From NCBI GenBank assembly GCA_044345405.1, contig JBIJBE010000002.1:96001-160000 (forward strand): 64,000 nucleotides of DNA, read 5' to 3'. Below the pieces are notes generated by a model. The model was not told the DNA's origin and searched no databases. It saw nothing but the letters and a program-made list of their open reading frames with translations. This DNA comes from Bdellovibrionota bacterium (lineage in GTDB: Bacteria; Bdellovibrionota_C; UBA2361; OMII01). Shown piece by piece: positions 12,423 to 33,485 of the stretch. The position numbers and the translations under genes are program-made. Within the stretch, counting starts at the first letter, position 1. Each line of letters starts with the position of its first letter.

Positions 12423-12443
12423 AGCACCATCTCCCTTCGTATC

Positions 12444-14539: not shown

Positions 14540-14582
14540 CCCTGGACTAAACCAAATTCAACTCAGGTAAACAAGGTTGTAG

Positions 14583-17513: not shown

Positions 17514-17523
17514 GTAACGCCTC

Positions 17524-19542
17524 ATGGCTGATACGCGGGCAATCACTAGGGTCCTGATCGCAAATCGCGGCGAGATCGCGCGAAGGATCGTTCGCACCTG
17601 CACTCGTCTTGGAATCGAGACCGTCGCGGTGTACACCGATGTCGACGCTCATGCGCCGCATGTTCGTGAAGCGACCTTTTCTGAAGCTCTCGGCACACCA
17701 GAGTCATACCTCTCGATTGAGAAGATCCTCGAAGCAGCGAAGCGCTCCAAGGCCGATAGCGTCCACCCCGGTTACGGCTTCCTCTCCGAGAACCCCGACT
17801 TCGCCGCCGCCGTGCGAGACACCGGACTCACCTGGATCGGCCCTACAAGCGAAACAATCCGGAAGCTCGGAAGCAAGACCGCGGCGAAAGAGTTGGCTCG
17901 CCAGGCAAACGCCCCAACATCTCCAACACTCATTCTCCCCCCTGGCTCCACCGCCGACCGCGCGAGCGCCATAGCGAAATTCGGCGAGTCCGTTGGGTTC
18001 CCACTAATCTTAAAAGCGGCAGCGGGAGGTGGAGGTCGCGGCATGCGCTTCATCAATCCCGAGAGCGACATCGCCATGGAGCTCGACAGCGCGCAGCGAG
18101 AATCGCTCAAAGCGTTCGGAAGCGATGAGGTCTTCGTTGAGAAGTGCATCACCCCCGCTCGGCACATCGAGGTGCAGATCGTAGGTGACACACACGGGAA
18201 CGTGGTGGCACTGGGGACTCGCGATTGCTCGCTGCAACGAAGTAATCAAAAGATCATCGAGGAGGCACCGGCCGTACATCTCGCACCGGGAAGCGAAGCG
18301 AAACTCCTTGAGGCGGCGACGAACCTCGCTCGCGCGGCCGGATACACAAGCCTCGGCACCGTTGAGTTCCTCTACGGGCAAGATGGGTCACCCTATTTTC
18401 TTGAGGTAAACACACGACTTCAGGTTGAGCATCCCGTCACAGAACTCGTCACTGGGCTCGACCTCGTGGAGCTTCAGCTCCGCATCGCAGCCGGCGAGAC
18501 CCTCGCGGCGTGCGGCGTCACCCACACACCGGAACCACAGGGGCACGCCATCGAGGCGCGATGGTGCGCTGAGGAGTTCACCGACCGATTCACCACAGCG
18601 ACCGGCATCGTGCTCGATATCGAGGTACCGCAGCCAGCGGCCCGCGGCACGATGGTGCGTGTCGATAGGGGCGTTGAGCCGTGCTCGGAGGTTACCCACT
18701 ACTACGATTCACTCATCGGGAAAGTTATTGTCTACGCCCCCTCACGAGATCGCGCGATTGAGGCGCTCGATGACGTGCTCTCACGTTCCCGACTCAGTGG
18801 CGTTCGAAACAATCGCAACCTCCTCTTGCATCTCCTTCGAACGCCAGAGTTTAAGGCGCTTCAGCACACCGTACAGGGAACGAAGCTCCTGCTCCCTTCA
18901 AGTGAGCAAAACTCAGCGATCGTTCGTGAGGCGCACGTTATCGCGGCGGCGGTTCGATGCGCGACACCAAACTCCGCGTGGGCGTCGCAGGGACCATGGT
19001 CCTCGACGACAGCGCCCGATGCACACATCTCCTATCCATGGACAACGAGCGAGCACGGGAACGCTCTCTCAAGCACAACGAGACAAGACGGAAATTCATT
19101 CGTCGTGTCGGTAGACGGGCATTCCGAAACCATTACTTTCACGGAAGGGCCATTCCTGAACGGACTCGGCACCACAGCGACCCTTTCTCTCAACGGAGGA
19201 GCACCAAGCTCCGTATCGCTCTACCGCGACGGAAATGACCTCTGGGTTCATTCGAACCGAGGAACGGTCGTGCTCCACCAACCAGCGATCGGCGAACGCT
19301 CAGGCGGTGCCGGTAGTAGCTCAGCAAACGAGATCCGCTCAACGATCCCCGGTAAGGTCGCCGCGGTTCTCGTCAAAGAGGGAGATACCGTCGAGCAAGG
19401 AGCTACCCTGCTCGTGCTTGACTCTATGAAGATGGAGCATCCGATTCGCGCGACGATGAATGGAAAGGTGGCAAGCTTGCCGCTGCAGGTCGGCACGATC
19501 GTACACGCGGGAGCCCTGCTCGTGTCGCTAGAACCACATTAA
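17524..19542 (+). CDS. biotin carboxylase / biotin carrier subunit (methylcrotonyl-CoA carboxylase alpha-like)
   Basis: LIANRGEIA, HPGYGFLSEN, GGGGRGMR, FLEVNTRLQVEHPVTE, C-terminal biotinyl domain with SMKME. Confidence 0.92.
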   Translation: MADTRAITRVLIANRGEIARRIVRTCTRLGIETVAVYTDVDAHAPHVREATFSEALGTPESYLSIEKILEAAKRSKADSVHPGYGFLSENPDFAAAVRDTGLTWIGPTSETIRKLGSKTAAKELARQANAPTSPTLILPPGSTADRASAIAKFGESVGFPLILKAAAGGGGRGMRFINPESDIAMELDSAQRESLKAFGSDEVFVEKCITPARHIEVQIVGDTHGNVVALGTRDCSLQRSNQKIIEEAPAVHLAPGSEAKLLEAATNLARAAGYTSLGTVEFLYGQDGSPYFLEVNTRLQVEHPVTELVTGLDLVELQLRIAAGETLAACGVTHTPEPQGHAIEARWCAEEFTDRFTTATGIVLDIEVPQPAARGTMVRVDRGVEPCSEVTHYYDSLIGKVIVYAPSRDRAIEALDDVLSRSRLSGVRNNRNLLLHLLRTPEFKALQHTVQGTKLLLPSSEQNSAIVREAHVIAAAVRCATPNSAWASQGPWSSTTAPDAHISYPWTTSEHGNALSSTTRQDGNSFVVSVDGHSETITFTEGPFLNGLGTTATLSLNGGAPSSVSLYRDGNDLWVHSNRGTVVLHQPAIGERSGGAGSSSANEIRSTIPGKVAAVLVKEGDTVEQGATLLVLDSMKMEHPIRATMNGKVASLPLQVGTIVHAGALLVSLEPH

Positions 19543-19563
19543 ACAACCTATGAATTGATAATT

Positions 19564-20209
19564 ATGAAGCTCGGAACAATCAGCATTGTACTCGTGCTCC
19601 CGGCTCTACTTGGTGCGCTTGCGTGGCATTCTTATGTTCTATTTCTCTATCGGGTTGCCTATCGGTTGGCTTGGGTTGAAGAGAATCTTATCCTCTCGGG
19701 AATCCTCGGTTGTACCTATCTCTTCCTAGGCCTCTGCGCCCTTGCACTCACGAGCTATTACGCGGTCCGCACAGCATCTAAGTGGCTAATCGTGAAGATG
19801 GGGCTGTCAGCACTACTCACACTATGCTCGGTCGCATCGTTTTTTGTAGGCGCGTACCTTGGCGAGCTCTGGGCCGTTACTGGCGCCAAATCATATTTGG
19901 ACGGCGTTGTTCGCTCCGCTAATGACTATCTGCAAAAAAAATGGGGAATATCCCGAGTCCTTAGATAAGCTCGACCTCCCTGCGATGCCGCGCTTAATAA
20001 TGGAATCAGCAGACAGCAACAAAAAGCAAGAGCACAAGTCTTTCACTGTGCCGTACCAACGAATTGATGGTCGATCAATCATAGTGGGCTTCGAATACAG
20101 GAAGGGTTTCAGCAACGACGACTGCGCAAGTTATAAATGGACCACAAATAACCCGAGGTGGGTGTGCACATGCCACGGCTGTCTTACCGACAATCCGAAT
20201 CGACGATAA
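19564..20209 (+). pseudogene. membrane hypothetical protein split by one extra base in an A8 tract
   Basis: ORF 19555-19968 (3 TMs) and ORF 19859-20209 join as ...ANDYLQKNGEYPESLDKL... if the A8 at 19934-19941 were A7. Confidence 0.65.
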
Positions 20210-20276
20210 GCTCTCTGGCAATAACCCCATCCCGGGATCTGGATTCAGGTTGCCTCGATAAACCGCGGCAAGGCGA

Positions 20277-20645
20277 TCACTGGTAGATCGTTTCCTTCAG
20301 CCGCTTCAACAACATCAACATAAAGCCAGATGAACAGAGGTGAGGAAAGAAGCTTTGATTGAGCTTTTCAGCGTTGACTGCCACGGCAACAAGCTTAGTG
20401 ACGGTCGCCGCATCTGCTGAAAGGATCTTCTCCGGAGACTGAAGAAAGGGCCTCAGCTCCTCAATCCAGCCCATCCAATCAACATCCTCGGAGCACAGAC
20501 CGCTCCCCTTAATGCACTCTTGCAGATCTCTCACCTGCGGAGAGTATTCACCGGTAGTGATATACACTGAATGTGCGTCACGTAATCCGTCAGTCTCAAG
20601 GAGTGGAATAAAATCGAATAATCGCGTCAACGCCGCCTCGTCCAT
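20277..20645 (-). CDS. DUF6508-like hypothetical protein
   Basis: Likely start MDEAALTRL at 20645; YSPQV...DWMGW...ILSAD...GFMLMLLKRL pattern recalled for DUF6508. Confidence 0.65.
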   Translation of the reverse strand: MDEAALTRLFDFIPLLETDGLRDAHSVYITTGEYSPQVRDLQECIKGSGLCSEDVDWMGWIEELRPFLQSPEKILSADAATVTKLVAVAVNAEKLNQSFFPHLCSSGFMLMLLKRLKETIYQ

Positions 20646-20739
20646 TTTCTCGGTATACCACACGAGAGCGTGTTCGACTATGACACAGAGAAGCCTTCCT
20701 TGCCCCTGAGCAGACCGCGGGCGACGTGAGAGGTGAAAA

Positions 20740-20920
20740 TCACCGAGCGTCGTTACAGAGGTCAGTAAGGAGCGATACAACGTTAGCGTTAAACTCGCGT
20801 TGATTCCGCAACGCTGGACCGAACACGGCGTTGATGACCGGTTGAAGCATCCGCTTACCGAACACGATAAACGGCCCAATGATCTTACGGTGCGAGGTCG
20901 GAGTCTGGGGCCGAACATCG
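20740..20920 (-). pseudogene. displaced 3' end (59 codons plus stop) of the gene at 30902-31315
   Basis: Translates DVRPQTPTSHRKIIGPFIVFGKRMLQPVINAVFGPALRNQREFNANVVSLLTDLCNDAR*; colinear with 30902-31082 with no indels and 3 aa differences. Confidence 0.9.
20864..20920. repeat. 57-bp perfect direct repeat, left island boundary
   Basis: acgataaacggcccaatgatcttacggtgcgaggtcggagtctggggccgaacatcg, identical to 31026-31082. Confidence 0.92.
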
Positions 20921-21173
20921 AAGGACCTCCCGCATCGCCTTTATAAGCGCACAGGAGGGAAGATCATCGAAGCGTAGAGTCGCTGATTCCAACCCCTGCC
21001 CCACAGCGCATACTCGGGATCTGCCGAGGAATTCTCAAAAGACACGCCTGCTGCGGCGGAGTCGATTTTTCGAACACTCCAAGAGGCTGGGAGGCGGTAC
21101 CCGATATACATACAGGAAGAATAAAGAAACCGCCGCCCTACTCATCCCTACCTCAGGGCTCATCCCTGGCGCA

Positions 21174-22175
21174 TCACCGCCGCGCAACGGCCCTCTCGAT
21201 TGGATAGAAGGAGAACGAGTATTCCTTTAAAACTGCAATCACCGCCCAGTCCCTAAGGACGTGCCCGAATGCCTCTTGCAGCGAATCGGTAAGCTCTCCT
21301 ATCTGCTCGGGGCTCTCCACTTCACAACGCATGATATAGTCCCAGACACCGACGAGTCGCATCATACTCACAATCGAACGCTGCTGTTGGCACCATCGCA
21401 AGATACTCTTGTGCATCTCAGCAGAGAGTGTATTGCTTGCAATCTGAATTCGGTATACTTGCATGCCAAGGCGAGCCGGCGAGACGAGATACGGAAAACC
21501 TGTTATAACCCCACTCTTAGTCAAAGCCTGTATTCGATAACCAATAGTAGACGAAGGGAGTCCGGTAGCGGAGCTTATATTTCTTAGCGATTCCGCGCCG
21601 CGACCACCTAATACTCGCAATATAGCGTGGTCGACCTCGTCGATGCTGACGATCCCAGACCCCGGCAGCGCCTCAAATCTTCGGCTATGCTTCACGCCCT
21701 CCGGGGCGAGGTATTTCCTCCCGAACCACCAGTATCCGATCGAGAGGCACGAATCTCTCGTATCGAACATGCCCGGCGCGCGAGCGTCGAGCTCCTCTAG
21801 GCGCCGAGCCACGTCAAGCGTATTCATCGCCTCAATACCGATATGATAGTCATACTTACCGGCCGTGCGATAAAACCATCTGATCCCGGGGGATTCCGTC
21901 ACAGCCTGGGTAAGTCTTGCGCTGAGACTCTTTTTATCCTTCGCTGGAGAGAAGAAAACCTCAAGCTCGGTCGCCCCGAGCCGGTAGGTGTCGACAAAGA
22001 CAGCCTGCGAGACAAGCCCCTCCTTGGCCCAACGGCTCATCTTCCCCTGGAGAGCGCTCTCTTTTATCCCTAGAGATTTTGCGAGCGAGCTCAACGGCTC
22101 GTTACCATGGAACTGAAGCGAGTACAGCAGGAACTTGTCTACATCTGAAATTTTTTGAATTTGTTGTCTTTTCAA
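21174..22175 (-). CDS. Lrp/AsnC-like transcriptional regulator with two tandem HTH+RAM units
   Basis: ISDVDKFLL...LSSLAKSLGIKES...EGLV and IDEVDHAILRVL...SLRNISSATGLPSSTIGYRIQAL...GVI; RAM-like GKYDY and GVWDY. Confidence 0.82.
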   Translation of the reverse strand: MKRQQIQKISDVDKFLLYSLQFHGNEPLSSLAKSLGIKESALQGKMSRWAKEGLVSQAVFVDTYRLGATELEVFFSPAKDKKSLSARLTQAVTESPGIRWFYRTAGKYDYHIGIEAMNTLDVARRLEELDARAPGMFDTRDSCLSIGYWWFGRKYLAPEGVKHSRRFEALPGSGIVSIDEVDHAILRVLGGRGAESLRNISSATGLPSSTIGYRIQALTKSGVITGFPYLVSPARLGMQVYRIQIASNTLSAEMHKSILRWCQQQRSIVSMMRLVGVWDYIMRCEVESPEQIGELTDSLQEAFGHVLRDWAVIAVLKEYSFSFYPIERAVARR

Positions 22176-22290
22176 TCGACTCTCTACTTACAAAAGACGT
22201 CAATAACTAGCGCTCTAAACTAAAAACCGAAGCCCGACAAGAATAAAGGATGCCAGAGGATTTGTTATAAAACCGATACGAGAGAGAAGA

Positions 22291-22320
22291 AGGGAAGTGA
22301 ACCCCATGGCTCACTTCCCT
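22291..22320 (-). terminator. hairpin after csrA (possible terminator/attenuator)
   Basis: 10-bp stem AGGGAAGTGA/TCACTTCCCT followed on the minus strand by pyrimidine-rich TCTTCTCTCTC. Confidence 0.55.
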
Positions 22321-22325
22321 GCTGG

Positions 22326-22493
22326 CTACCGTCCTGCGTCAGGGCGCGTTCTGGTCTCCTGCCTGAAAACTGGAACATTCCTTGGCGCTTCGATTCCAAG
22401 TTTAACCCTTCCGCGTTCAATTTCTAACACGGTAATTTTGATGGAATCACCAATGACTATTACCTGATCACTACGCCGCGCAAGAACCAACAT
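22326..22493 (-). CDS. csrA: carbon storage regulator CsrA/RsmA homolog
   Basis: MLVLARRSDQVIVIGDSIKITVLEIERGRVKLGIEAPRNVPVFRQE; GGGAG RBS; start at ATG 22493. Confidence 0.9.
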   Translation of the reverse strand: MLVLARRSDQVIVIGDSIKITVLEIERGRVKLGIEAPRNVPVFRQETRTRPDAGR

Positions 22494-22523
22494 TAGACTA
22501 TTCTCCCAAAAAAACTTCAAAGG

Positions 22524-22651
22524 CCCTCTGAGAAACCGTCGTCCCTCCTCTGGCATAAGAGTCAGAGCGACATACCGTTAGAGATAGAGAAAGTACAACC
22601 GTCAGTCAAACGACATGAACGGTGACCAACAATCGGCTCGAATATTGGACA
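22524..22651 (-). promoter_or_regulatory. conserved operator/promoter/leader element, copy 1
   Basis: TGACCAA-N15-TTGGACA at 22623-22651; minus-strand TTGACT-17-TATCTC; leader ACTCTTATGCCAGAGGAGGGACGACGGTTTCTCAGAGGG. Confidence 0.75.
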
Positions 22652-22717
22652 AATACAGAGGCCTCGCCAACGAATATCTCAGGAGAGTGCGTAGCGAGAA
22701 TAAACGTAAATCAGACA

Positions 22718-24958
22718 TCACTCAATTCTCTCCGCCACCCAGTTGTACTCAAACACGCCACTCCGAGAACTAGATGAGCCGGTGACAACGGTTTTTCCAG
22801 ACAGCGCAGAGCCGTCCGCGGACAGAACTGCAGAGCTACTCAGAGTGGCTCCGTTGATGGACTTCGCAAGCAAGTTTACGTCAAAGCCGTGTTCCCGAGG
22901 CGTAACCGAGACCGATTCAAAGTGAGTAAAGAGAACCTCGCCGCTCAACCCCGATATACCCGTTACGCCAACCAGAGTGATAGAAGAGCCAATGAATCCT
23001 CTTTGGCTCTCGTCGAATATGAAATAACCCTCCCCCTCGGCGGGCGCCGTAAGGGACCATTTCCAAACCCCGGCCAAGTGAGAAGGAGTTGATGCGGAAT
23101 TGGACTTGCCGGCTGATAGCGGAGGATTCTGCTGCGGACCGGCGTCGACACGCGGAGTATCTGCTTGCTCCATCAACGGCTGGAGTGGTTCTGCCACAGT
23201 ATTCTCGAGCCAGTCGACTGAGCTGTAGGTTCTTAACTGACCGTCCACTAATCGCTCAAACCCTTTCGTCGCTACCAGCGCCCCCGGTTCGGTCTTATCC
23301 GCAATGTAAAACAGGGCGGTGACTGAAACATCAGAGAGTCGCCGCACCTCGCCTTCTTGCGACACGCCATCTCTATTCGCGTCGAACCACAGGCCCAATT
23401 TGTCGAGTTCGATGCCGTCTATCTTTCCATTTCTATCAGTGTCCATGGTCGCGAGCGCTTCGTACCCATCTTTCCACGGAATGGCGGTGTGTTGGTTGTC
23501 CGAAGCGGGCTGCTTTCCGCCGAAGGTCCAACTGCCGAATAGCTGTTCGGCCGAGGTGATTGAACCGGTGTGTTCAGCGTCAAAAACAAGGACAGGGAGA
23601 GACGCTGAACCTCTCCACAACCACGTATCCTGCTTCGAGTGAGGGTTAAGCTTGAATGACACCATCGTGCTCGGAAGCAGAGAGTAGTCACCAGCCCATA
23701 CCAGGGAGATCGGCGTAGCCATTTCAGCGTAGTAAGAGATAGATCCGCACGACATTTTGTCGGGCGTGATCGTCGAGACTGGAATCAGCTTGCAATTTTG
23801 ATCAATGTAGAGAGAGCCCGCCTTACACCCCGGCTCTTTGTCCTCTTTCGAGCCTCCCCCGATCTGTGCCTCACCTGCATGACCCAGGGAGTTCGCGGCA
23901 CCGTAACCTCCGAGGCAGTTGATGTACTGTTTATTTTGCTCGTAACTGTCTCTTGTCCGCTCGTTCTTCTCGAGAAGGTGTATCCAGAGGTAGCTGGTAA
24001 AGCACGTGGCGTACTTCTCCATCATTTCCTTGCCGGCCAGATCTACGCCCTTGGCCTGGGTGTATCCGAAATCTTGGTTATGACAGGTCTCGAACGCTTT
24101 TCTAGCAACGTCTTCGAAACACTGCAATGATTGCGCGCCCTCACTTGGTGATATCTTCAGATCTCCCAACTTGTGCGTGCTTCCGTGCTTGAAATTAAGT
24201 CCGTAGTAGCTGCAACTAGGGGTTGGAGTAGCCGTGCTTGTCGCCGTCGCCGTTCGAGTGGGTGTGAGCGTCGGAGTCCGGGTAGGAGTTCTCGTAGGCG
24301 TCGCCGTTCGAGTGGGCGTAAGCGTCGGAGTCCGGGTAGGAGTTCTCGTAGGCGTCGCCGTTCGAGTGGGTGTAAGCGTCGGAGTCCGGGTAGGAGTTCT
24401 CGTAGGCGTCGCTGTTCGAGTGGGTGTAAGCGTCGGAGTCCGGGTAGGAGTTCTCGTAGGCGTCGCTGTTCTAGTTGGGGTAGGCGTCGAGGTTGGTGTT
24501 TTCGTCCCCGAGCATCCGACTCTTCGGAGGTAGTTCAAGATGACTGCAGAATCGAGGGGCGTTACACTGCCATCCCGGTTTACGTCTAAAGCTCTCGAAC
24601 TTTCACTAACGGGGCCTGGCCCCTTCTTGATGAGAAACAGGTCGATCGCTTGAGCGTCCGTTTCATTAACCACGCAATCCTGATTGACATCATAGGTTGA
24701 TAAGACTCTGTCGCCGTTACAATCCAGCGGCGCGCAAGGCTTCGCTGTCGCCGAGCGGGTAGGAGTTGGGTCGAGCCGTGAGGGCGCATCCTCTGGGCTG
24801 CGAACGACCGGCGAGGCGTTACAAACCCAAGTCACGGGGTATGATACGGCCAAAAGACACGCGATCCCTAGGGCGCACAGGCGACTGCTGCAATAAAGAA
24901 CAACATTGGCGACCGCACCGATTAAGCCTTCAGCGAAGTCGTTCAGCTTGATCACCAT
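22718..24958 (-). CDS. large exported protein: dockerin-like EF-hand pair, PT linker, Cys-rich region, DxDxDG Ca-binding domain
   Basis: [13 protein letters not shown]...[13 protein letters not shown]; ([18 protein letters not shown])n; TPISLVW...EQLFG...[17 protein letters not shown]...[15 protein letters not shown], a pattern typical of large secreted Ca-binding proteins. Confidence 0.8.
24245..24470 (-). repeat. 54-bp coding tandem repeat (about 4 units) encoding a Pro/Thr linker
   Basis: Unit cgttcgagtgggtgtRagcgtcggagtccgggtaggagttctcgtaggcgtcgc. Confidence 0.9.
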
Positions 24959-25239
24959 CCCCTATTCTCCTCTAAGGCGTATAGCAGCCAAGGATCCCTC
25001 GTGCACCTCCCTAAACATCACGGAAGAAGAATGCAAAAAACTTCCGAAAACCATCCGCGACCAGAGGGAACGGCAAATGCCGGGCGGTGGCCACGGCACC
25101 ACAAAATACGCGAGTCGGCTCGCCCTCCCGATGCTAGCCATACCATACTAACTGTTGGGGGCTGTCGTCCGTTCTCGGACGAAACTTTACGTTTACAGCC
25201 AGTTTTGAGAAAGACCAAAAAATAGGAAGATTTCGGGTG

Positions 25240-25860
25240 CAAGAATGGGTAATGCGAAGGCACCGAACACATGGTCACCTTGTTTCAGCACCATACATCC
25301 TCAGGGAACCTTGCCTGCGGACTACGTTCATACCAGTGAGAGTAGCGGGCTTCCTTACCCAGGTTTCTCAGGGCTTTGAGAACGATCCCAGTGGGCAAGG
25401 TCATGCTGGAGGGGATTCCGAACGACTTTGCCCTTTACCGCGGTCAAACTAGCGGCGGCGGTCGCTTCTTGTGAGGGAAGGTATTTAAAGAGCTGTGGAT
25501 TAAGGGCGGTGCGTTAGCACTAGGTATTTGATCAGTCCGCCTGGTGTTCATGCGCCGGAAACACGAAAGCCCTCAGTGATTGTGGAGTTCAGACCGGAGC
25601 GGTCTTGAATGGACTGCCGGTCTCTGACGTGAAAGCGCTAACTGAACTGTCAGTTAACTGTTAATGCGCGTCACTTCCTTGGCTGGTAGAGCTGGGTTCG
25701 TCAGCCGCTGCCTCGCACCAGAAAACTGACCTTGCCATCAAAAGAGCCCCTTACCAGTTTGCCCAGGGCCGGCAATGCCCCTCAAAGATCCCGGTGTCGG
25801 CGCTGATCGGGTTTGTGGCTCTCGACGGAACGCTTTCCGCCAAACTGGAGGAGGGGGTGA
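25240..25860 (-). pseudogene. highly decayed remnant of the Lrp-like regulator, copy 2
   Basis: Ordered peptide islands resembling 21174-22175: LLQFGGKRS~SLQFHGNEP, TSETGSPFKT~SSATGLPSST, SQSPEKPG~VESPEQIG, SHYPF~SFYPI; many stops and frameshifts; lies downstream of a csrA remnant. Confidence 0.4.
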
Positions 25861-26175
25861 CGGTATACTGCGATGTCCTTGAGGAACTCAGAAACCATAC
25901 TCGCCGCACTAACGCGAACCTCAGTGTCTATTCTTGTTGGACATCCAAGTGAGCGCTGCGCAACTAACGCGGTACAAAATGAATCAAACTCCGAAAGCCA
26001 TTTGGAGGCAGATACTTCCGCTAATAACAAGGGGTCGAGCACCGAAAGTTCGATTGCAACGAACGACTGCTGGCACTCCTTGACAAGACTGGCCTGCGAC
26101 AAACCCGACACTCCATCGTCTTGCGTTATCAATCACGGCGAACACTCGGATAGCTCTGCCGTCGATGTTCCGGTG

Positions 26176-26289
26176 CTATTTTTTGGGGGCAGCAGAACAG
26201 GCGCCTCCGATCTTCAACACAAACCGCTCACTTCTTATTAAATCAGCTATCAGGATTACGTCGCCAGCTTTTCGGTTCAGACCTAATAG
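26176..26289 (-). pseudogene. csrA: csrA remnant, copy 2
   Basis: LLGLNRKAGDVILIADLIR...APKK* aligns to MLVLARRSDQVIVIGDSIK...APRN; start codon lost; nearly the same distance from the conserved element as the intact csrA. Confidence 0.65.
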
Positions 26290-26320
26290 TCCTATTTTCA
26301 TCCTCACAAACACTCGAAAA

Positions 26321-26448
26321 CCCTCTGAGAACCGTAATCCCTCCTCTTGCATAAGAGTCAGACCGACACACAACTTGGAGCTAGAGAAACCCAAGATCTC
26401 TCGCAAACTACGTAAAGTGCATACAACTAATAGCCCGAACATCGGTCA
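26321..26448 (-). promoter_or_regulatory. conserved operator/promoter/leader element, copy 2 (more diverged)
   Basis: CATACAA-N15-TCGGTCA at 26420-26448; TTGCGA-17-TAGCTC; leader ACTCTTATGCAAGAGGAGGGATTACGGTTCTCAGAGGG. Confidence 0.7.
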
Positions 26449-26513
26449 AACGTGAGTCAGGACCAAACCCGAGCGGAACTCCCAGGAGCACCCCCCTCAG
26501 TTTGACAGGGGCA

Positions 26514-29500
26514 CTAAGAACACTGACTGTTAAAGCGAGGAAGCTGCGTTGATACCTCCAGAGTTCGATTATACAAGGTTGTTCCCGTGGCAGCACGGGC
26601 CGCATCGCTTGAACTAAGGCTACGGCGCCGTGCTTTCTTAAGTGTCGACGCCGCTCGCTTCGTGAGGCGGTGAAGCTGCTTCGCGCGACCGGTTATCTCA
26701 GTGATATTTGATGAAGTCTGAATGGCCGCGCATCCAACGCATGATTTAGTCACCAGCGGGAAGCTCGACCATATGCTTTTCCATTGCGCAAGGTAGAGGT
26801 CCTGGGCCTCCTCCTCGTATGAAGCAGCGAGGTCCAAAAAGGTTGACGCGTTCGATACGCGTCTGATGCGACTCGCTAAATAGCGCACGGCAGACCGCTG
26901 TCGCGAGGCGAGATTATCGAGCTGTGACAACGTATCTTTGTTGTCGGCTTCGTTACACGAGATCTCTTCAACGGTACATCGCTGAGTCTGCGCCGAGGCC
27001 TCGACGGCGGCACTACCTAATGTCCACGTGATCACACTCGACGAGCTGGTGTTGTCACTTTCCGGAGTCGCGAAAGGGACAACCATCGTGAAGACATTAC
27101 TAAACGCGCCTCGAAAGAAGGTCGTCGGTTGACCCGGATTCGCCACGCCTGGATCCACGGAATTCCGCGGGCCATAAGGAATTGCAACAGAGGATAGTTC
27201 ATCACTCCTGTAACCGAAGTGTGCTAACAGGCTCCCGTCTTGCAGGACATCCACACACTCGGCAATCGGTGTTACCTTGTATTGTGTGTCAGTTTGAGTC
27301 TCTGTTGCTGACGTTGTCGCCGTAGGCGTCGGTGTCTTTGTCAGCGCTATGACCTCGCATGTTGCCGACGGTGTCGCCGTGGGTGTCGGTGTCTTCGTCG
27401 GCATTATGACCTCGCATGTTGCTGAAGGTGTCGCCGTAGGTGTCGGTGTCTTTGTCGGCACCACCTCGTCGCACTCGACATTGTCTTTTGGTGAGGAACA
27501 TCCCGGATCCAATCCATCAATCAGACCATCTCTGTCGTCATCAACGCCGTTCTGACATTGAGAGGTGCCATCAGCCTCATTAGTATCTTGAGAACTTGAG
27601 CATCCTGGGTCAGCCAAATCGATAAGGCCGTCTCGATCATCGTCCGTACCGTTTTGGCACTGAGAGGTTCCGTCACCCTCATTATTGTCTTGAGGGCTTG
27701 AGCATCCTGGGTCAGCCAAATCGATAAGACCATCTCGATCATCGTCCGTACCGTTCTGACACTGAGCAACTGGCGATGCCTCGTCGCTATCATCAGGTCC
27801 ACTACAAGCGAAGTCCTGCAGGTCGATCGCACCGTCTCTGTCGTTGTCCACACCATCCGAGCACTGACTCGCAATTTGGAAGCGATACGCGACCTTTGCG
27901 GCCTGCCACGGACCCTTCTGGCCACCTTGCCCGATTCCTCGTACGAACCACTGGTACTGCCCTCGCGGCAAAACCGTTGTTGGCGTGTAAGAAGTTGACG
28001 TCAGGCTTGCCTGCCTAATGACCACCTGGCCGTTCGCGGGGGAGATTTGTCTAACCACGATCTCGTAAGTTTTTGCCCCGGCAGCGGCCTTCCAGCGAAA
28101 AGCTACTTCAGGAGCTGAAATTACTCCGTTCTGAGGAGGGAATACCTGCGTTGGTAAGCCGATAGGTTGCGCACGAGCCTCGTTGTTGAGGGTACGGTCG
28201 TATGTCGCACTGCTCGTGAGGTCACGCCAGCATCCGGGGTCGGACGCGTCCGTCACTCCGTCAGAATCGTTATCCGAGCCATCCTGACACTGTGAGGTGC
28301 CATCAGCCTCATTAGTATCTTGGGGACTTGAGCATCCTGGGTCAGCTATATCGACAAGGCCATCTCGATCATCGTCCGTACCGTTCTGACACTGAGCAAC
28401 TGGTGATGCCTCGTCATTATCATCAGCTCCACTACAAGAGAAGTCCTGCAGGTCGATTACACCGTCACCATCATTGTCTAATCCGTCCGAGCACTGGCTT
28501 GCAATTTGGAAGGTAAACGCGACATTTTCGGACTGCCAAGGACCTTTCTGGCCGGCTTGACGGACTGCTCGTACAAACCATTGGTACCTCCCCCGCGGCA
28601 AAGATACCAGTGGCTTGTAAAACGTCGAGGTTATGTTTGCCGTTCTTATGACCTCCTGGTTTGCTTGAGGAGAGACCTGTCTGACCGAGACCTCATAAGA
28701 TTGCGCTCTAGCAACAGCCTTCCAGCGGAAAGCTAATTCGGGCGCCGTAATCACAGCGTTCCGAGGTGGAAACACCTGGGTTGGTATCCCTAGTTCTGGT
28801 TGCGAGCGAGCTTCGTTGTTGAGGGTACGATCGTAGGTCGAGCTGTTCCCGACGTCACGCCAGCACCCAGGATCTGCCGCATCGACCACTCCGTCGAGGT
28901 CGTTATCTGAGCCATCCTGACACTGAGAGGTTAGTAGACCTTCGTCGTTTAGGTTGGGGTCATATGAGCTAGGGTTTTCAGGGTTAGCCCAGCATCCGGG
29001 GTCATATCGGTCAGACAGGCGATCCCCATCGTTATCGAGACCATCGTCGCATTCCGTCCCACCTGAGCACAGATACGAGAAGTAAGCGTTTACACATCCA
29101 TTATTAAAGCCAAGAACCGCCTGGCCGGTGGTGGGATCATACAAAGCTCCCTGGATGCTCGTGGAACTGCACTTAGAAGAGAACGTGTTAGTACCGGCGG
29201 CACACCTTCGATTTCTTCCGATAGTTTGACTTCCAGACGCTTGAGTTGATTTGAAAGAAGTTAGATGAGCGGTCGTCGCTGTTCCCGGCTGGGCGCATAT
29301 ATATCCACATTCCGAGATTCGGCCAGCTCCGCTTTGGGACGCGGTAATAACCCCATCCTCCCTGTTGTAGGAACATTCTACCGTTCCAGTACCGGCGCCG
29401 CCCTGTCTGACCTTTTGGAAATTTGCCACACTGACGACGCAAGTGAGACCAGCACCAATTGAAGTACCAGAGGAAACATATCCTGCCGTAAATTTTTGAC

Positions 29501-29825
29501 TTGCTCCTCGAGAATTATGGCACACATATACGCCCTTTCCGTCGGCGTATCGATTGCTGGCAATGGAGACACGGTTATTAGCAAGGCGTACCTGGAAGAA
29601 CGGCTCCTGATTCGCGGAGTTGTCGGATCGAACCCAAAGATAATTCCCCACAGAGGTAAAGCACTGGTCATAACCATCAGTGGACACGCTTTCTGTTGCC
29701 GAGATGTAGCCCATCTTAACGCCGCTATCCCGATATATCTCCTGGGCATTGATAACCGCCCCCCCAAGGAAGACTGACAAAAGTGAACAGAGCGTTGCGA
29801 TTCGAAGAGATAATCTTGTTTTCAT
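26514..29825 (-). CDS. 1103-aa secreted repeat protein: Cys-rich N-domain, about 9 C-x-(D/N)G-x-D-x-D-x-DG repeats, two FN3/Ig-like domains, PT linker, C-terminal domains
   Basis: Signal peptide; QCQNGTDDDRDGLIDLADPGCSS repeats; FRWKAV...SYEV...LPRGRYQWFVRA twice; TKTPTPTATPSAT repeats. Confidence 0.85.
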   Translation of the reverse strand: MKTRLSLRIATLCSLLSVFLGGAVINAQEIYRDSGVKMGYISATESVSTDGYDQCFTSVGNYLWVRSDNSANQEPFFQVRLANNRVSIASNRYADGKGVYVCHNSRGASQKFTAGYVSSGTSIGAGLTCVVSVANFQKVRQGGAGTGTVECSYNREDGVITASQSGAGRISECGYICAQPGTATTAHLTSFKSTQASGSQTIGRNRRCAAGTNTFSSKCSSTSIQGALYDPTTGQAVLGFNNGCVNAYFSYLCSGGTECDDGLDNDGDRLSDRYDPGCWANPENPSSYDPNLNDEGLLTSQCQDGSDNDLDGVVDAADPGCWRDVGNSSTYDRTLNNEARSQPELGIPTQVFPPRNAVITAPELAFRWKAVARAQSYEVSVRQVSPQANQEVIRTANITSTFYKPLVSLPRGRYQWFVRAVRQAGQKGPWQSENVAFTFQIASQCSDGLDNDGDGVIDLQDFSCSGADDNDEASPVAQCQNGTDDDRDGLVDIADPGCSSPQDTNEADGTSQCQDGSDNDSDGVTDASDPGCWRDLTSSATYDRTLNNEARAQPIGLPTQVFPPQNGVISAPEVAFRWKAAAGAKTYEIVVRQISPANGQVVIRQASLTSTSYTPTTVLPRGQYQWFVRGIGQGGQKGPWQAAKVAYRFQIASQCSDGVDNDRDGAIDLQDFACSGPDDSDEASPVAQCQNGTDDDRDGLIDLADPGCSSPQDNNEGDGTSQCQNGTDDDRDGLIDLADPGCSSSQDTNEADGTSQCQNGVDDDRDGLIDGLDPGCSSPKDNVECDEVVPTKTPTPTATPSATCEVIMPTKTPTPTATPSATCEVIALTKTPTPTATTSATETQTDTQYKVTPIAECVDVLQDGSLLAHFGYRSDELSSVAIPYGPRNSVDPGVANPGQPTTFFRGAFSNVFTMVVPFATPESDNTSSSSVITWTLGSAAVEASAQTQRCTVEEISCNEADNKDTLSQLDNLASRQRSAVRYLASRIRRVSNASTFLDLAASYEEEAQDLYLAQWKSIWSSFPLVTKSCVGCAAIQTSSNITEITGRAKQLHRLTKRAASTLKKARRRSLSSSDAARAATGTTLYNRTLEVSTQLPRFNSQCS

Positions 29826-29864
29826 GACGATATTTGGACCTTTGTAGTCATCCTTTGCCGAGTT

Positions 29865-30059
29865 TCACTGTTTAGTGGCACCAATCTTTCTTAAGAAGGT
29901 CGACAAGTCGTTAACCCGACCTTCCCACACACCTTCCGTAAAACCCGCCAATCCCTTCTCCGTTGTTCGGCACATCGACATATGAGGGGCTCCGGGCCCA
30001 GCTACACGCCGATTCCCTTGAGAGACGAAAGAACGAAGCATTCTGGAGGACCTGCTCAA
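29865..30059 (-). pseudogene. possible N-terminal remnant of the Lrp-like regulator, copy 3
   Basis: MLRSFVSQGN...EGRVN...RKIGATK resembles LLYSLQFHGN...EGLVS...YRLGATE; lies downstream of a csrA pseudogene. Confidence 0.4.
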
Positions 30060-30126
30060 ACAACCTTTTTTTGAGACTCAAAGGGAACGCACACCCGTGC
30101 CCCCCGCTGCTAGCTGACGTCCCCAG

Positions 30127-30280
30127 TCAGAAGTCCTTTTCCCCCTGCCTGACCACGGGAACATTCCCTTGGGCTCTGGATGCCCAATTACATTCTGTCG
30201 CCCTTGACGTTTAAAACCGTAACTCCGACGCTTCAACGAACAAGAATTGCCTCATCATGTTTCCGGGCTATCGCCAATCT
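30127..30280 (-). pseudogene. csrA: csrA pseudogene, copy 3
   Basis: RLAIARKHDEAILVR*SVGVTVLNVKGDRM*LGIQSPR/NVPVVRQG: colinear with the intact csrA, with two in-frame stops, one frameshift and no start codon. Confidence 0.8.
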
Positions 30281-30309
30281 GTGCGCACTCTTCTTAAAAA
30301 CGTCAAAAG

Positions 30310-30438
30310 CCCTCTGAGAAACCGTCGTCCCATCTCCGGCATAAGAGTTGAATCGACCTACAGAACGGAATTATAGAAAACAAAAATCTCTGTCAAACGA
30401 CGTAAGGTGTGACCAATTAACGGCACGGATCTTGGTCA
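30310..30438 (-). promoter_or_regulatory. conserved operator/promoter/leader element, copy 3
   Basis: Perfect TGACCAA-N15-TTGGTCA at 30410-30438; TTGACA then TATAAT (15-bp spacer) or TAATTC (17-bp spacer); leader ACTCTTATGCCGGAGATGGGACGACGGTTTCTCAGAGGG. Confidence 0.75.
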
Positions 30439-30479
30439 AAATAGTATTCCGCCCTCCCCACAGCGACTCGCGCATGAAC

Positions 30480-30901
30480 AGTTGCGATTGGCTTCACAAA
30501 CTCAGTTTTTGGGTTCTATTTCGGTTACCATCACATCGTTACTCAGCAAGCACGAAACACTACCAACCCTTTTTCCCATCCACCGTGACGGATACGACCT
30601 CGGAATGCACTCCGAGCGAGGACCGGTAATTCTTAACAAAGCGACGACCGAGGAGCTCACGGGGGACGCGCAAGCGACACAGCGAACAAGATCCGATCCA
30701 CGCTCCCCGAGAAAGTTGCGGCGATGCTCGTTAATGCTGGAGATATCGTTGAACACTGCGCGATACTGCTCGTGCTCGACTCGATGAGGATGGAGTACCC
30801 GATTTGGACGTCGGTACGTGGGAAGATCTCGACTCGTTAAGCTTACACCTGGAACGGTCGTGCAAACGGGGTTGCCTCTTGAGGCAGTTGAACAGGAATA
30901 A
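30480..30901 (+). pseudogene. decayed copy of the 3' end of the carboxylase alpha gene (biotinyl domain)
   Basis: IHRDGYDLGMHSERGPVIL / NKIRSTLPEKVAAMLVNAGDIVEHCAILLVLDSMRMEYPI / PGTVVQTGLPLEAVEQE* against LYRDGNDLWVHSNRGTVVL / NEIRSTIPGKVAAVLVKEGDTVEQGATLLVLDSMKMEHPI / VGTIVHAGALLVSLEPH*; frameshifted, biotin Lys changed to Arg. Confidence 0.85.
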
Positions 30902-31315
30902 TTACCGCGAGTCGTTACTCAGGTCGGTCAACAGCGACACCACATTAGCGTTAAACTCACGCTGATTACGGAGCGCAGGACCAAACACCGCGTTAATAAC
31001 CGGTTGAAGCATTCGCTTCCCGAGAACGATAAACGGCCCAATGATCTTACGGTGCGAGGTCGGAGTCTGGGGCCGAACATCGGCGGAATAGATCTGACAG
31101 AGCCGTCTGAGAAGCTCAACTCGCTCTGGCGTCGCGGTGAATCCATCTCGGGTCACTGAGAATGAGAGCTGTGCGATATGGCGCTCATCCGCCTCGCTGA
31201 ACTTACCAGCGGCGCGCAGGTCGGCCACCCGTCGGGCGAGCGCATCGCGAACATCGGTGTTATTCTCCCCCGCGACGGAGAGCCAGTTTGACTGTGGTGA
31301 TGTAGGAGCTGCCAT
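30902..31315 (-). CDS. conserved hypothetical protein (island target; 3' end supplied by the island)
   Basis: Likely start MAAPTSP at 31315; TSHRKIIGPFIVLGKR...NQREFN motif recalled from small proteins/domains in polysaccharide loci. Confidence 0.75.
   Translation of the reverse strand: MAAPTSPQSNWLSVAGENNTDVRDALARRVADLRAAGKFSEADERHIAQLSFSVTRDGFTATPERVELLRRLCQIYSADVRPQTPTSHRKIIGPFIVLGKRMLQPVINAVFGPALRNQREFNANVVSLLTDLSNDSR
31026..31082. repeat. 57-bp perfect direct repeat, right island boundary
   Basis: Identical to 20864-20920. Confidence 0.92.
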
Positions 31316-31328
31316 AGCGGCGAGCGTA

Positions 31329-32258
31329 TCACAAGAACCGGTGGCGATGAAGCTCCACAAAACGGAGGCGGTGGAACTCCTCCCTTTTGGTGATATATCC
31401 GGCATCTAGCCCCGCCATCGCGGATACCAACATCCCGGCCCCCTCAAGCAAACCAGCCCCCGTTTGGTAGATCCGGATACCATCAGCGAACACCACTTCC
31501 CCCCGCTTTACCGCCGGTAAGGAGTCCCATTGGGGCGCATCCTCAAGCTTTCGAAGGTACCGGACGCTCTCTTCCAGCGTCTTCCCGCGCGGGGCAACCA
31601 TAATCGCGTCAGGGGCGAATGCCGCCAGCTCCTCCCATGTGGTCGGCTTGCTGATTTCGCGCTGCTCCGAATTCATTGTGCGGCCCGACACAAGTCGAAT
31701 AATATCAGGGATCCAACATCCCGCGATCTCCAAGGGCTCAACGCTTGAGAGCACAACCGTTTTCTTGTTTCGCAACCGCTCGTAGAGGTTCCGCCCCCAA
31801 TCAAGGAGCTGCGATTTTAGGCGCTGCGCTCGATCACGTCCGGTTGGCCCCATGCCGATAAGCGTTCCCAGATCACCGTAGGCATCAAGGAGATCGTTAA
31901 GGCTCGCGATATCAACGGACTTTACCCGAACGTTCTTCATCCAGTGGTGCTGGAAATATTCCTGCGCAAACCCGCAGAAGTCGTCGGGGTTATCAGAAAC
32001 GACCGTTGTAAGAATTACGGAGGGAGCGGCCTCTGTGAGCTTGTCGATATCGACCGGGATCGCTGAGAGGCCCGCCTGAAGCTTATCGCCCTCGACGCTA
32101 CCGGAGGGCTTGGGAGCTGAGGACCTGGTAACGACCGTTGGCGTATAGTCACTCGAGGGTGGCTGAGGGCAGAGGTGAGTCACGCCGAAGACCTTCCGCC
32201 CGTCGTGGAGAGCGTACAGTATCTCGGTAAGAAATGGGTTCAGGGAAACGATCTTCAT
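31329..32258 (-). CDS. BtuF/TroA-like ABC substrate-binding family protein
   Basis: MKIVSLNPFLTEILYAL...GVTH, AGCWIPDII, WEELAAFAPD, WDSLPAVKRGEV. Confidence 0.8.
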   Translation of the reverse strand: MKIVSLNPFLTEILYALHDGRKVFGVTHLCPQPPSSDYTPTVVTRSSAPKPSGSVEGDKLQAGLSAIPVDIDKLTEAAPSVILTTVVSDNPDDFCGFAQEYFQHHWMKNVRVKSVDIASLNDLLDAYGDLGTLIGMGPTGRDRAQRLKSQLLDWGRNLYERLRNKKTVVLSSVEPLEIAGCWIPDIIRLVSGRTMNSEQREISKPTTWEELAAFAPDAIMVAPRGKTLEESVRYLRKLEDAPQWDSLPAVKRGEVVFADGIRIYQTGAGLLEGAGMLVSAMAGLDAGYITKREEFHRLRFVELHRHRFL

Positions 32259-32547
32259 CAGCGCCTCGCGGGAAGGAACCTCTTCCACCTCTACCATCGG
32301 CCTAAGAGCTCGGTACCTTAAGAGGGCCCATCACCCGACCCGCAGGCGAGCCCAACCATCAACCCGACAAACCTCTGGAGAATTGGATTTACACAGGAAA
32401 ATCCCACCCTCACCGCCACAACCACTCTACAACAGCGTTATTGCTCTTGACGGTCGGGCGACCGAGGGGACACTCTAATCACTGTAGTTTTGATTACGTA
32501 TGTGTCGCGGGAACCGTCTCGCCCCTCCTTTTACACTCGAAAGCACC

Positions 32548-33435: not shown

Positions 33436-33485
33436 CACAGCGCAGCATTCGTTCTCTATACTGGAGAGCGCAGCCTCACAATCAA

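What the first reader, a model, noticed from the sequence alone, without database searches (positions are those of the whole stretch)
20740..31082. Integrase-less 10.2-kb island inside a CDS that restores its target with a recoded 3' end
Seen: an exact 57-bp direct repeat (20864-20920 and 31026-31082) lies within the coding sequence of the gene at 30902-31315. Beyond it the two 3' ends stay colinear for 124 bp, with about 26 mismatches by hand count, mostly at third codon positions, and only 3 aa changes. Established: elements that integrate into coding genes (e.g. e14 and phage 21 in icd) carry a replacement 3' end. Inference: this small hypothetical gene is an att target under purifying selection. 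The displaced end is still stop-free, so the insertion is probably recent. No recombinase gene is visible, so the island was mobilised in trans, entered by homologous single crossover, or lost its integrase.
Basis: partly seen in the sequence, partly recalled or inferred. Interest (0 to 1): 0.75.

Follow-up and report, generated by a model that had tools for sequence, protein, structure and literature searches.

The report
Recombinase-less island that re-caps its target gene
A 10-kb piece of foreign DNA sits inside the end of a small conserved gene of an uncultured lake bacterium and supplies a substitute gene end, a known style of insertion that here comes without any enzyme of its own to move it.

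Summary
An exact 57-bp direct repeat (20864-20920 = 31026-31082) is followed by 124 colinear bp with 26 differences (codon positions 5/1/20, 3 aa changes, stops in register). Its chance probability is about 1.5e-6.

A congener (G044) has the empty site: biotin-carboxylase gene, DUF6508 gene, intact target gene. The left copy is therefore the displaced native 3' end. The right copy is island-borne and is as diverged from the left (dS 1.4, dN/dS 0.04) as orthologues of different species.

New here: a decayed, frameshifted remnant of the neighbouring carboxylase gene (30470-30900) lies beside the island-borne end. The island therefore carries a captured chromosomal junction that is older than this insertion.

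Cargo is a double Lrp/AsnC regulator, two secreted repeat proteins and three csrA units (one intact). No recombinase lies in the island. The genome holds only an integron integrase, a Xer-like enzyme and a genus-conserved tyrosine recombinase.

The 57-bp block looks like a gene-conversion tract rather than a minimal att core. It shares a lineage-specific Thr codon, and one other lake population carries a block of about 105 bp.

Best reading: a non-autonomous, CIME-like island. The enzyme of the first crossover is unknown. It is a new member of a known kind, of moderate interest.

The parts
17524..19542 (+). Intact biotin carboxylase plus biotinyl-domain gene (672 aa). It is the convergent neighbour of the target gene in relatives.
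   Evidence: NCBIfam matches to biotin carboxylase and carrier domains. It abuts the target gene tail-to-tail in 8 of 12 relatives' loci examined.
19543..20272 (.). 730 bp that are extra relative to G044. It holds ORFs with no family match and a 59-bp repeat (19832-19890) with a 95% copy on contig C82.
20277..20645 (-). DUF6508 gene, native neighbour of the target gene in this lineage.
   Evidence: Pfam PF20118, E 3.3e-11. G044 has it in the same place at 83% aa identity.
20740..20863 (-). Displaced native 3' end of the target gene (41 codons and stop), still open in frame.
   Evidence: 108/124 identical to G044 against 101/124 for the right tail. Homology with G044 runs on through the intergenic region into DUF6508. 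dS to G044 is 0.58, the lowest of all pairs.
20864..20920 (-). Left copy of the exact 57-bp block. This is the left island junction and homology ends at 20920/20921.
21174..22175 (-). Cargo: fused double Lrp/AsnC-type regulator (333 aa).
   Evidence: Pfam AsnC_trans_reg and HTH_AsnC-type; NCBIfam.
22329..22493 (-). Cargo: intact csrA-like gene (csrA-a), followed by a 13-bp-stem hairpin at 22320-22291.
   Evidence: Pfam CsrA, E 1.2e-20. Genome scan 73.8 bits. Hairpin.
22510..22653 (-). Repeat D5a, the conserved 5' region of the csrA units. Its copies are D5b (26306-26389) and D5c (30296-30440). The repeat occurs only in the island.
22718..24958 (-). Cargo: secreted 746-aa protein with a dockerin and EF-hand-like domain and Thr/Pro repeats.
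   Evidence: Pfam Dockerin_1, E 4e-11. A homologue with 69% aa identity lies at another locus in G002.
26175..26289 (-). csrA-b relic, recognised by eye only.
   Evidence: Translation. The CsrA model did not detect it at E<=1.
26514..29825 (-). Cargo: secreted 1103-aa protein with acidic double-disulfide repeats.
   Evidence: NCBIfam NF033662, 179.9 bits, 9 stretches. A paralogue lies on C44 and homologues in G002 and G010.
30161..30277 (-). csrA-c pseudogene (1 TGA, 1 TAA inside).
   Evidence: 31.9 bits.
30470..30900 (+). Decayed remnant of the carboxylase gene's 3' end, with frameshifts, stops and MKM changed to MRM. It lies tail-to-tail against the island-borne gene end.
   Evidence: tblastn gives 34/58 identical for aa 594-651 and a weak match from aa 532. 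Frames. It is 53-58% identical in nt to the nearest orthologues (46% to G014), 59-66% (54% to G014) over the last 250 columns, where those orthologues are 60-76% identical to each other apart from the near-identical pair G011/G015.
30902..31025 (-). Island-borne replacement 3' end, now the working end of the target gene.
   Evidence: It is 79-81% identical to the left tail, G044, G020 and G010 alike. dN/dS is 0.01-0.08 against all of them.
31026..31082 (-). Right copy of the exact 57-bp block (right island junction).
30902..31315 (-). Target gene: a conserved 137-aa protein of unknown function and last gene of a two-gene unit with 31329-32297.
   Evidence: No Pfam or NCBIfam family. It is present in 38 of 41 genomes of the order sample. 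All named homologues are called hypothetical.

Best explanation
This is a horizontally acquired, non-autonomous genomic island of 10,162 bp, CIME-like in layout.

How it entered. It came in as a circle through one crossover at the 5' edge of a captured copy of the target gene's 3' end. The intact gene is now native 5' part + joint + island-borne tail. The native tail (20740-20863) was pushed 10 kb downstream, next to its old neighbour DUF6508.

What the island's homology arm is. It is a fossil chromosomal junction taken from a lineage in which the target gene abuts the carboxylase gene. The carboxylase piece is useless and has decayed. The gene tail has stayed under purifying selection because it serves as the working gene end whenever the island is integrated.

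The joint. After integration, gene conversion between the two copies homogenised the joint to 57 bp in this strain and about 105 bp in another population. The long exact repeat is therefore not the minimal att core.

Mobility. The island encodes no recombinase. The first crossover most likely needed a site-specific recombinase supplied by a helper element or since lost, because outside the block the tails share no exact run longer than 14 nt. Today the island can be lost only by RecA-type recombination between the 183-bp repeats, or moved by a helper.

Shown: the insertion, the empty site, the foreign tail, the remnant, the lack of a recombinase gene and the variable block. Inferred: the circle, the helper and the direction of conversion.
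For: Empty site and synteny. G044 has carboxylase, DUF6508, target gene. In 8 of 12 relatives' loci the carboxylase gene lies next to the target gene, 9 to about 1400 bp apart.

Native versus foreign tail. Left tail to G044 is 108/124, and the homology continues into DUF6508. The right tail is 99-101/124 to G044, G020 and G010. Left to right is 98/124, with dS 1.42 and dN/dS 0.04.

Different ages of the two dead pieces. The carboxylase remnant has frameshifts, stops and a lost biotinyl-lysine motif, and is the most divergent sequence in the comparison. The left tail has no disruption, and every one of its residues occurs in working orthologues.

No recombinase in the island. Pfam/NCBIfam on the large ORFs. 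76 stop-to-stop pieces covering the island's gaps and 19543-20276 gave 1 match, CsrA. PF00589 gave 3 genomic matches, none in the island, and PF00239 gave 0. The three are an integron integrase, a Xer-like enzyme, and one present in 32 of 35 genus genomes at 71-93% identity.

Conversion. Both block copies encode Thr in PQTPTSH, where all 15 other homologues read have Ala, as do the congeners. In 1 of 4 runs laid (X19, one contig, depth 5.8) the left copy carries the right-tail letters at all 8 differing positions from 20821 to 20863 and left-type letters at 20806, 20811 and 20815.

Foreign composition. Island GC is 0.533 against 0.576 and 0.557 in the flanks.

ICE ancestry hint. Extra csrA paralogues are typical of ICEs in Legionella (PMC4471563, passage read).
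Against: No helper element and no integrase remnant was found. No other genome searched has anything inserted at this position of the gene: 40 other genomes and 34 other genus genomes. A dedicated site-specific element family might be expected to recur.

Carrying 430 bp of the neighbouring gene is not typical of a classical attP.

The variable block shows that homologous recombination acts here, so a purely RecA-driven history is not excluded.

The linkage across the 57-bp block rests on the MAG assembly. The public contigs laid (k=31) break at the block and cannot confirm it.

The hybrid left copy rests on one low-depth contig in one run.
Confidence: 0.5

Rival explanations
1. Recombinase-free history. 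A circular DNA carrying the captured junction integrated by RecA-type (Campbell) single crossover within the gene tail. The same machinery accounts for the conversion tracts and any future loss. No site-specific enzyme was ever involved.
For: There is no recombinase or remnant of one in the island. The exchange boundary differs between populations. The homology arm is a plain piece of chromosome of at least 613 bp rather than a compact attP. The insertion is unique among 41 and 35 genomes searched.
Against: Outside the block the tails are 79% identical and their longest exact run is 14 nt. From general knowledge, not tested here, this is well below the length of perfect identity RecA normally needs. 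The block sits exactly at the edge of homology, where a site-specific crossover would lie. The block's identity includes a lineage-specific Thr codon, so it was made after the two sequences met and cannot have provided the initial homology.
Confidence: 0.25
2. Mirror model. The island integrated into the 3' end of the carboxylase gene and brought a replacement carboxylase end, DUF6508 and a passenger fragment of the small gene. The right-hand remnant and right tail are the native ones.
For: The topology is symmetrical: one intact and one truncated copy of each of the two convergent genes. The compact right-hand junction resembles G010, G011, G015 and G014.
Against: Both dead pieces would then be of equal age. 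The remnant is heavily decayed, whereas the left tail is undisrupted with dN/dS 0.04-0.06 against all orthologues. The left tail and DUF6508 are syntenic with G044. The exact block at the far end of the duplicated segment would be unexplained.
Confidence: 0.05
3. Old in-situ tandem duplication of the junction, with cargo later inserted between the copies and no horizontal transfer of the tail.
For: A tandem duplication of the segment from carboxylase aa ~532 to the block gives exactly this order of parts.
Against: The two tails are more different from each other (98/124) than the left tail is from G044 (108/124). Their divergence is almost purely synonymous. Relatives lack the duplication.
Confidence: 0.05
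4. Assembly artefact. The true state is an empty chromosomal site plus a separate 10.2-kb circle, or DNA of another strain joined wrongly at the 57-bp repeat.
For: The source is a metagenome-assembled genome of 85 contigs. No data seen here bridge the block.
Against: The segment has no replication gene. Contigs identical to the window have similar word depths on island and flanks in X8 (55-67 against 65-74) and X13 (4-5.8 against 5.8-6.9). The tool warns these depths are not copy numbers, so this is weak. Even as a circle it would still be an element carrying the gene tail and the remnant.
Confidence: 0.05

Closest known systems
e14 prophage in icd of E. coli K-12 (with the icdC pseudogene)
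   Same: The element sits in the 3' end of a protein gene and carries a substitute end with mostly silent changes. The displaced native end survives as a fragment at the far side. Loss of the element produces a chimeric gene. Source: PMC13626634, passages read, which cites Hill et al. 1989 (not read).
   Different: e14 encodes its own integrase and excises on SOS induction. Here no recombinase is present, the cargo is not phage-like, and the substitute end is accompanied by a decayed piece of the next gene.
CIME (cis-mobilizable element): a decayed ICE/IME that keeps attL and attR but has lost integration and transfer genes
   Same: [quoted passage not shown] Definition read in PMC5704250.
   Different: No cognate ICE or IME with this target was found in 40 plus 34 other genomes. 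There is no decayed integrase or transfer gene. The only hint of ICE ancestry is the set of three csrA units.
ICE-borne csrA paralogues of Legionella
   Same: Extra csrA-like genes ride on horizontally transferred islands (PMC4471563, passage read). This island has one intact and two decayed copies.
   Different: There are no type IV secretion or conjugation genes here, and the function of the csrA units is untested.
Campbell-type single-crossover integration of a circle bearing a chromosomal fragment (recalled from general genetics; no paper read)
   Same: It gives the same product: the homologous segment duplicated on both sides of the insert, with one working copy of each truncated gene.
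   Different: Such integration needs good identity. Here the arms are 79% identical with exact runs of 14 nt or less outside the block.

Membership tests
Site-specific integrative element with target-restoring 3' end (e14-like prophage, ICE, IME) | Direct repeats at both ends that include part of the target gene | tested here: met
   57-bp exact block within a 183-188-bp repeat.
Site-specific integrative element with target-restoring 3' end (e14-like prophage, ICE, IME) | Element-borne substitute end keeps the target gene intact | tested here: met
   Open 137-aa gene, right tail with dN/dS 0.01-0.08 against orthologues.
Site-specific integrative element with target-restoring 3' end (e14-like prophage, ICE, IME) | Own tyrosine or serine recombinase gene | tested here: not met
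   No match in the island.
Site-specific integrative element with target-restoring 3' end (e14-like prophage, ICE, IME) | Empty site in relatives | tested here: met
   G044, and the compact loci of G010, G011, G015 and G014.
Site-specific integrative element with target-restoring 3' end (e14-like prophage, ICE, IME) | Excised circle or attB junction detectable | not testable with these tools
   Only k=31 contigs were available and they break at the block.
Site-specific integrative element with target-restoring 3' end (e14-like prophage, ICE, IME) | Related elements at the same target in other genomes | tested here: not met
   Only G000 has a second high-identity tail copy among 41 genomes and 35 genus genomes. 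The exact 32-mer of the block is absent from three collections.
CIME | attL and attR retained, integration and transfer genes absent | tested here: met
   Repeats present. No recombinase, relaxase or secretion family among all ORFs scanned.
CIME | Derived by decay from an ICE/IME of the same att specificity | tested here: inconclusive
   No remnant genes and no cognate element were found. The three csrA units are only a hint.
Integron cassette | Cassette bounded by attC and located beside intI/attI | tested here: not met
   The integron integrase is on another contig, C49. The block folds no better than shuffles, z -0.1 to -0.2.
In-situ tandem duplication | The two copies are each other's closest relatives and the dead parts are of equal age | tested here: not met
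   The left tail is closer to G044 than to the right tail. The remnant is decayed while the left tail is intact.

The most novel reading that the evidence does not exclude
The island is a recombinase-free, 'homology-armed' mobile unit. It travels between species carrying a captured chromosomal junction. Selection keeps the target-gene tail of that junction intact because every integration depends on it to re-cap the gene, and host recombination alone both inserts and removes it. The decayed carboxylase piece would then be a direct fossil of the imprecise excision that created a target-restoring attachment arm.
Probability: 0.2. Interest if true: 0.6.

Novelty: new member of a known kind. Interest (0 to 1): 0.35.

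Why it matters
Insertions that repair the gene they interrupt are textbook for phages and ICEs, but how the repairing arm arises is rarely visible. Here the arm still carries a rotted piece of the gene next door. That points to capture of a chromosomal junction from another species.

The case also shows that a long exact 'att' repeat can be a secondary product of gene conversion, which warns against reading core sites from repeat length. For freshwater microbial ecology it documents an island with two large secreted proteins and regulators. The island region was covered in all four lake runs laid.

Tried and rejected
Bridging the block with public data. Four runs were laid. All are k=31 contigs that stop 30 nt into the block or start 30 nt before its end, so they show neither the integrated joints nor an empty site or circle. 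No joint 20920->31083 was listed, which means nothing. The listed joints (sides of 22-49 nt, in the carboxylase gene and the repeat protein) were ignored as the tool advises. Depth differences between island and flanks were not interpreted as shares of cells.

Collection scans with a 32-nt piece of the block gave 0 matches in metagenome contigs, viral contigs and genome contigs.

Relatives of the Lrp-like cargo gene in metagenome contigs: 5 loci at about 50% identity, with none of the other query genes beside it.

Other negative or uninformative results:
- Rfam on 17000-34000 gave no match at E<=1.
- No tRNA lies at the island; the nearest is at 34268.
- Folding of D5a (z -0.6) and of the block was unremarkable.
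- The promoter/terminator scan gave no more than shuffles.
- The protein atlas returned only 'hypothetical' clusters for the target gene.
- A test for hidden homology upstream of the left block was negative.
- A sliding identity scan of both flanks against G044 for a mosaic boundary found none.
- A search for decayed paralogues of cargo genes in the 1.5-kb gap 24959-26513 found none.

G020's contig ends after the target gene because of a ~190-bp dispersed repeat, not an island.

I therefore could not look for an allele with this gene's 5' part joined to the left tail. No supplementary files were opened.


Full report
**Observation**

The repeat finder on 19000-33000 reports one two-copy family at 20738-20925 and 30900-31087 (188 nt, 85%, spacing 10162). 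Position by position, 20864-20920 equals 31026-31082 exactly (57 nt). The next 124 nt toward the gene's stop have 98 identities and 26 differences. No exact run outside the block is longer than 14 nt.

- In the frame of the minus-strand gene 30902-31315 the differences fall 5/1/20 on codon positions and change three residues.
- Both copies stop at the same codon.
- At the tail's identity, 57 straight matches have a probability of 1.5e-6.
- The block is only 39-47/57 identical to six congeners, so it is not a generally frozen stretch.
- Homology ends sharply at 20920/20921.

**Context**

The window is contig C85:96001-160000 of a 3.59-Mb, 85-contig genome (completeness 99.4%, contamination 3.5%). 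Public runs holding this DNA are lake-water metagenomes, with 20 runs from 20 studies holding at least half of the sampled words.

The target gene encodes a 137-aa protein with no Pfam or NCBIfam family. It is found in 38 of 41 genomes sampled from the genus and order, and its named homologues are all called hypothetical. It follows a periplasmic-binding-protein-like gene (31329-32297). In relatives it is convergent with a 672-aa biotin carboxylase/biotinyl-domain gene (window 17524-19542). In 8 of 12 relatives' loci fetched the two genes lie tail to tail, 9 to about 1400 bp apart. In the other 4 the fetched piece held no carboxylase gene.

**Empty site**

A DNA search of all 35 genomes of the genus with 19543-30901 found one contiguous 83% match in G044 to window 20273-20919, which covers DUF6508 plus the left tail and block. 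The G044 locus reads carboxylase, DUF6508, target gene, binding-protein gene, 311-aa gene, yaeQ. It aligns to window 11481-19533, then 20273-20919, then 30897-34025. Relative to G044 the window has two extras: 730 bp at 19543-20272, and the 10,162 bp between the repeat copies.

In G020 the contig ends 210 bp past the gene because of a ~190-bp dispersed repeat that also occurs on C12 and C33 of this genome, not because of an island. In one search only G000 has a second high-identity tail copy (90% aa). The extra matches in six other genomes are amino-terminal pieces or weak matches inside roughly 505-aa frames.

**Which tail is native**

The left tail is 108/124 identical to G044 and the homology continues into DUF6508. 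The right tail is 99-101/124 to G044, G020 and G010 alike. The gene's 5' part is 83% identical to G044.

| Pair | dN | dS | dN/dS |
|---|---|---|---|
| left tail - right tail | 0.058 | 1.42 | 0.04 |
| left tail - G044 | 0.034 | 0.58 | 0.06 |
| right tail - G044 | 0.070 | 0.91 | 0.08 |

True orthologue pairs give dN/dS of 0.01-0.08. The two tails therefore diverged as working gene ends in separate lineages. The left one belongs with this genome's flanks and the right one is foreign.

**A fossil next to the foreign tail**

Relatives' carboxylase genes align past the target gene's stop into window 30579-30900. tblastn of the window's own carboxylase finds aa 594-651 at 30661-30834 (34/58 identical) and a weak match from aa 532 at 30470. 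The remaining residues up to a stop directly abutting the target gene's stop appear in another frame. The piece has frameshifts and in-frame stops, and the biotinyl-lysine motif MKM reads MRM. Over 440 nt it is 53-58% identical to the nearest orthologues (46% to G014). Over the last 250 columns it is 59-66% (54% to G014). Those orthologues are 60-76% identical to each other, apart from the near-identical pair G011/G015.

The island-borne tail therefore comes with a decayed copy of the compact tail-to-tail junction seen in G010, G011, G015 and G014. This dead piece is clearly older than the dead left tail, which has no disruption and whose residues all occur in working orthologues. That asymmetry rejects two alternatives. 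One is a one-step in-situ duplication. The other is the mirror model, in which the island restored the carboxylase gene.

**Island content**

From the foreign tail, reading on the minus strand:
- the carboxylase remnant;
- a csrA pseudogene (30161-30277);
- a 1103-aa secreted protein with acidic double-disulfide repeats;
- a csrA relic seen only by eye (~26175-26289);
- 1.5 kb without recognisable genes;
- a 746-aa secreted dockerin/EF-hand-like protein;
- an intact csrA (22329-22493);
- a fused double Lrp/AsnC regulator;
- 250 bp of unmatched sequence.

The 145-170-nt repeat seen three times (22510, 26306, 30296) is the 5' region of the three csrA units and occurs nowhere else in the genome. 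Homologues of the two large proteins lie at other loci in G002 and G010. Island GC is 0.533 against 0.576 and 0.557 in the flanks.

**Recombinases**

None lies in the island.
- The large ORFs gave no recombinase match.
- 76 stop-to-stop pieces covering the island's gaps and 19543-20276 gave only CsrA.
- PF00589 gave three genomic matches, none in the island.
- PF00239 gave none.

The three tyrosine recombinases are an integron integrase on C49 (TIGR02249, 437.8 bits, cut-off 265), a Xer-like enzyme on C7, and a 369-aa enzyme 31 kb left of the island. The last is present in 32 of 35 genus genomes at 71-93% identity and lies among housekeeping genes. A helper on an unbinned element cannot be excluded.

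**The block is a homogenised tract**

Both copies encode Thr in PQTPTSH, where the 15 other homologues read have Ala, as do G044, G020 and G010. A foreign arm 21% diverged next door would not share a lineage-specific change by descent.

Among four runs laid, three (X8, X13, X20) show the window's letters in the left tail. In X19 one contig (20233-20920, depth 5.8, with seven other SNPs) carries the right-tail letters at all eight differing positions from 20821 to 20863, and left-type letters at 20806, 20811 and 20815. There the identical block is therefore about 105 bp.

Exchange between the copies is thus ongoing and its boundary varies. That is the signature of homologous recombination or gene conversion. 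The tract appears to grow from the edge of homology into the tail.

**Mechanism**

The order of parts is exactly what one crossover between a circle (block - foreign tail - remnant - cargo) and the native gene gives. Which enzyme made that crossover is open.

For a site-specific enzyme from a helper or a lost gene:
- the crossover lies at the very edge of homology;
- the arms are too diverged for ordinary RecA exchange (general knowledge, not tested);
- the long-term purifying selection on the foreign tail suits an element that lives integrated in this gene;
- csrA paralogues are typical ICE cargo in Legionella (PMC4471563, passage read).

Against it: no helper, no integrase remnant, no second occurrence in 40 plus 34 other genomes, and an arm that is a plain chromosomal piece.

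I put the helper/lost-integrase (CIME-like) reading at 0.5 and a purely RecA-driven history at 0.25. The mirror model, old duplication and assembly artefact get 0.05 each.

**Limits**

Linkage across the block rests on the original assembly. The public contigs (k=31) break at the block as expected and cannot test it. Similar word depths on island and flanks in X8 and X13 are only a weak argument for one molecule, since the tool says depths are not copy numbers. The hybrid left copy is one low-depth contig. Exact-match scans of three collections with a piece of the block found nothing.

**Comparison and novelty**

The layout matches e14 in icd, with a substitute end and a displaced icdC fragment (PMC13626634, passages read). 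It also matches the definition of a CIME (PMC5704250, passage read). It fails the test 'own recombinase' for an autonomous integrative element, and the test 'derived from a cognate ICE/IME' is inconclusive.

It is a new member of a known kind. Its particular points are the fossil of the neighbouring gene in the restoring arm and the strain-variable conversion tract. I searched no literature for prior reports of these two points specifically.

Noticed in passing
22329-22653, 26175-26389, 30161-30440: Three csrA units share a conserved ~145-170-nt 5' region. One is intact, one is a pseudogene with two stops, and one is a relic. Each lies upstream (minus strand) of a cargo gene. The repeat is found nowhere else in the genome or in the genus DNA search.
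   Followed up: partly
G000 contig C49:17634-18662 (locus L056:5634-6662): An integron integrase (TIGR02249, 437.8 bits, cut-off 265). Direct repeats of 129 nt (86%) and 421 nt (93%) lie nearby on C49. A cassette array was not examined.
   Followed up: no
G000 C85:84311-85420 (L055:8311-9420), 11 kb before the window: A 369-aa tyrosine recombinase among housekeeping genes. It is conserved in 32 of 35 genus genomes at 71-93% identity and lies on the same contig as the target gene in G010, G020 and G009. It falls below the cut-offs of XerC/XerD models and its role is unknown.
   Followed up: partly
19543-20272: 730 bp that G044 lacks lie between the carboxylase stop and DUF6508. The stretch has ORFs without family matches and a 59-bp repeat (19832-19890) that is 95% identical to C82:14661-14719. 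Public contigs show strain variants and breaks here. The convergent intergenic site varies widely in the genus, from 9 bp to 1.4 kb.
   Followed up: partly
G000 C12:6736-6902 and C33:20978-21167; G020 ends of C22 and C88: A ~190-bp dispersed repeat with a poly-A tract. In G020 it sits between the target gene and the carboxylase gene and breaks the assembly.
   Followed up: no
24219-24488 and 27303-28931: Long in-frame tandem repeats lie inside the two secreted cargo proteins. One has an 18-aa Thr/Pro unit of 54 nt, about 5 copies. The other has 57-nt units and ~630-nt domain repeats with acidic double-disulfide motifs.
   Followed up: no
G000 C78:26749-29888, C21:53860-56986, C71:26054-30432, C22:5758-9692: Other direct repeats of 175-522 bp (88-99% identical) lie 2.8-4.1 kb apart. 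In some, one copy is the end of a long ORF and the other a short fragment. These may be further gene-end duplications.
   Followed up: no
31026-31082: The ends of the 57-bp block form an imperfect inverted repeat (5 + 6 pairs). The fold is no more stable than shuffles (z about -0.1 to -0.2), and the arms are not conserved in G044 by eye.
   Followed up: yes
G025:C46:12414-12617, G026:C101:17265-17759, G038:C10:949-1161: Weak matches (26-41% aa) to the target protein's carboxy-terminal half lie inside open frames of about 503-522 aa. This suggests a related domain in a larger protein.
   Followed up: no
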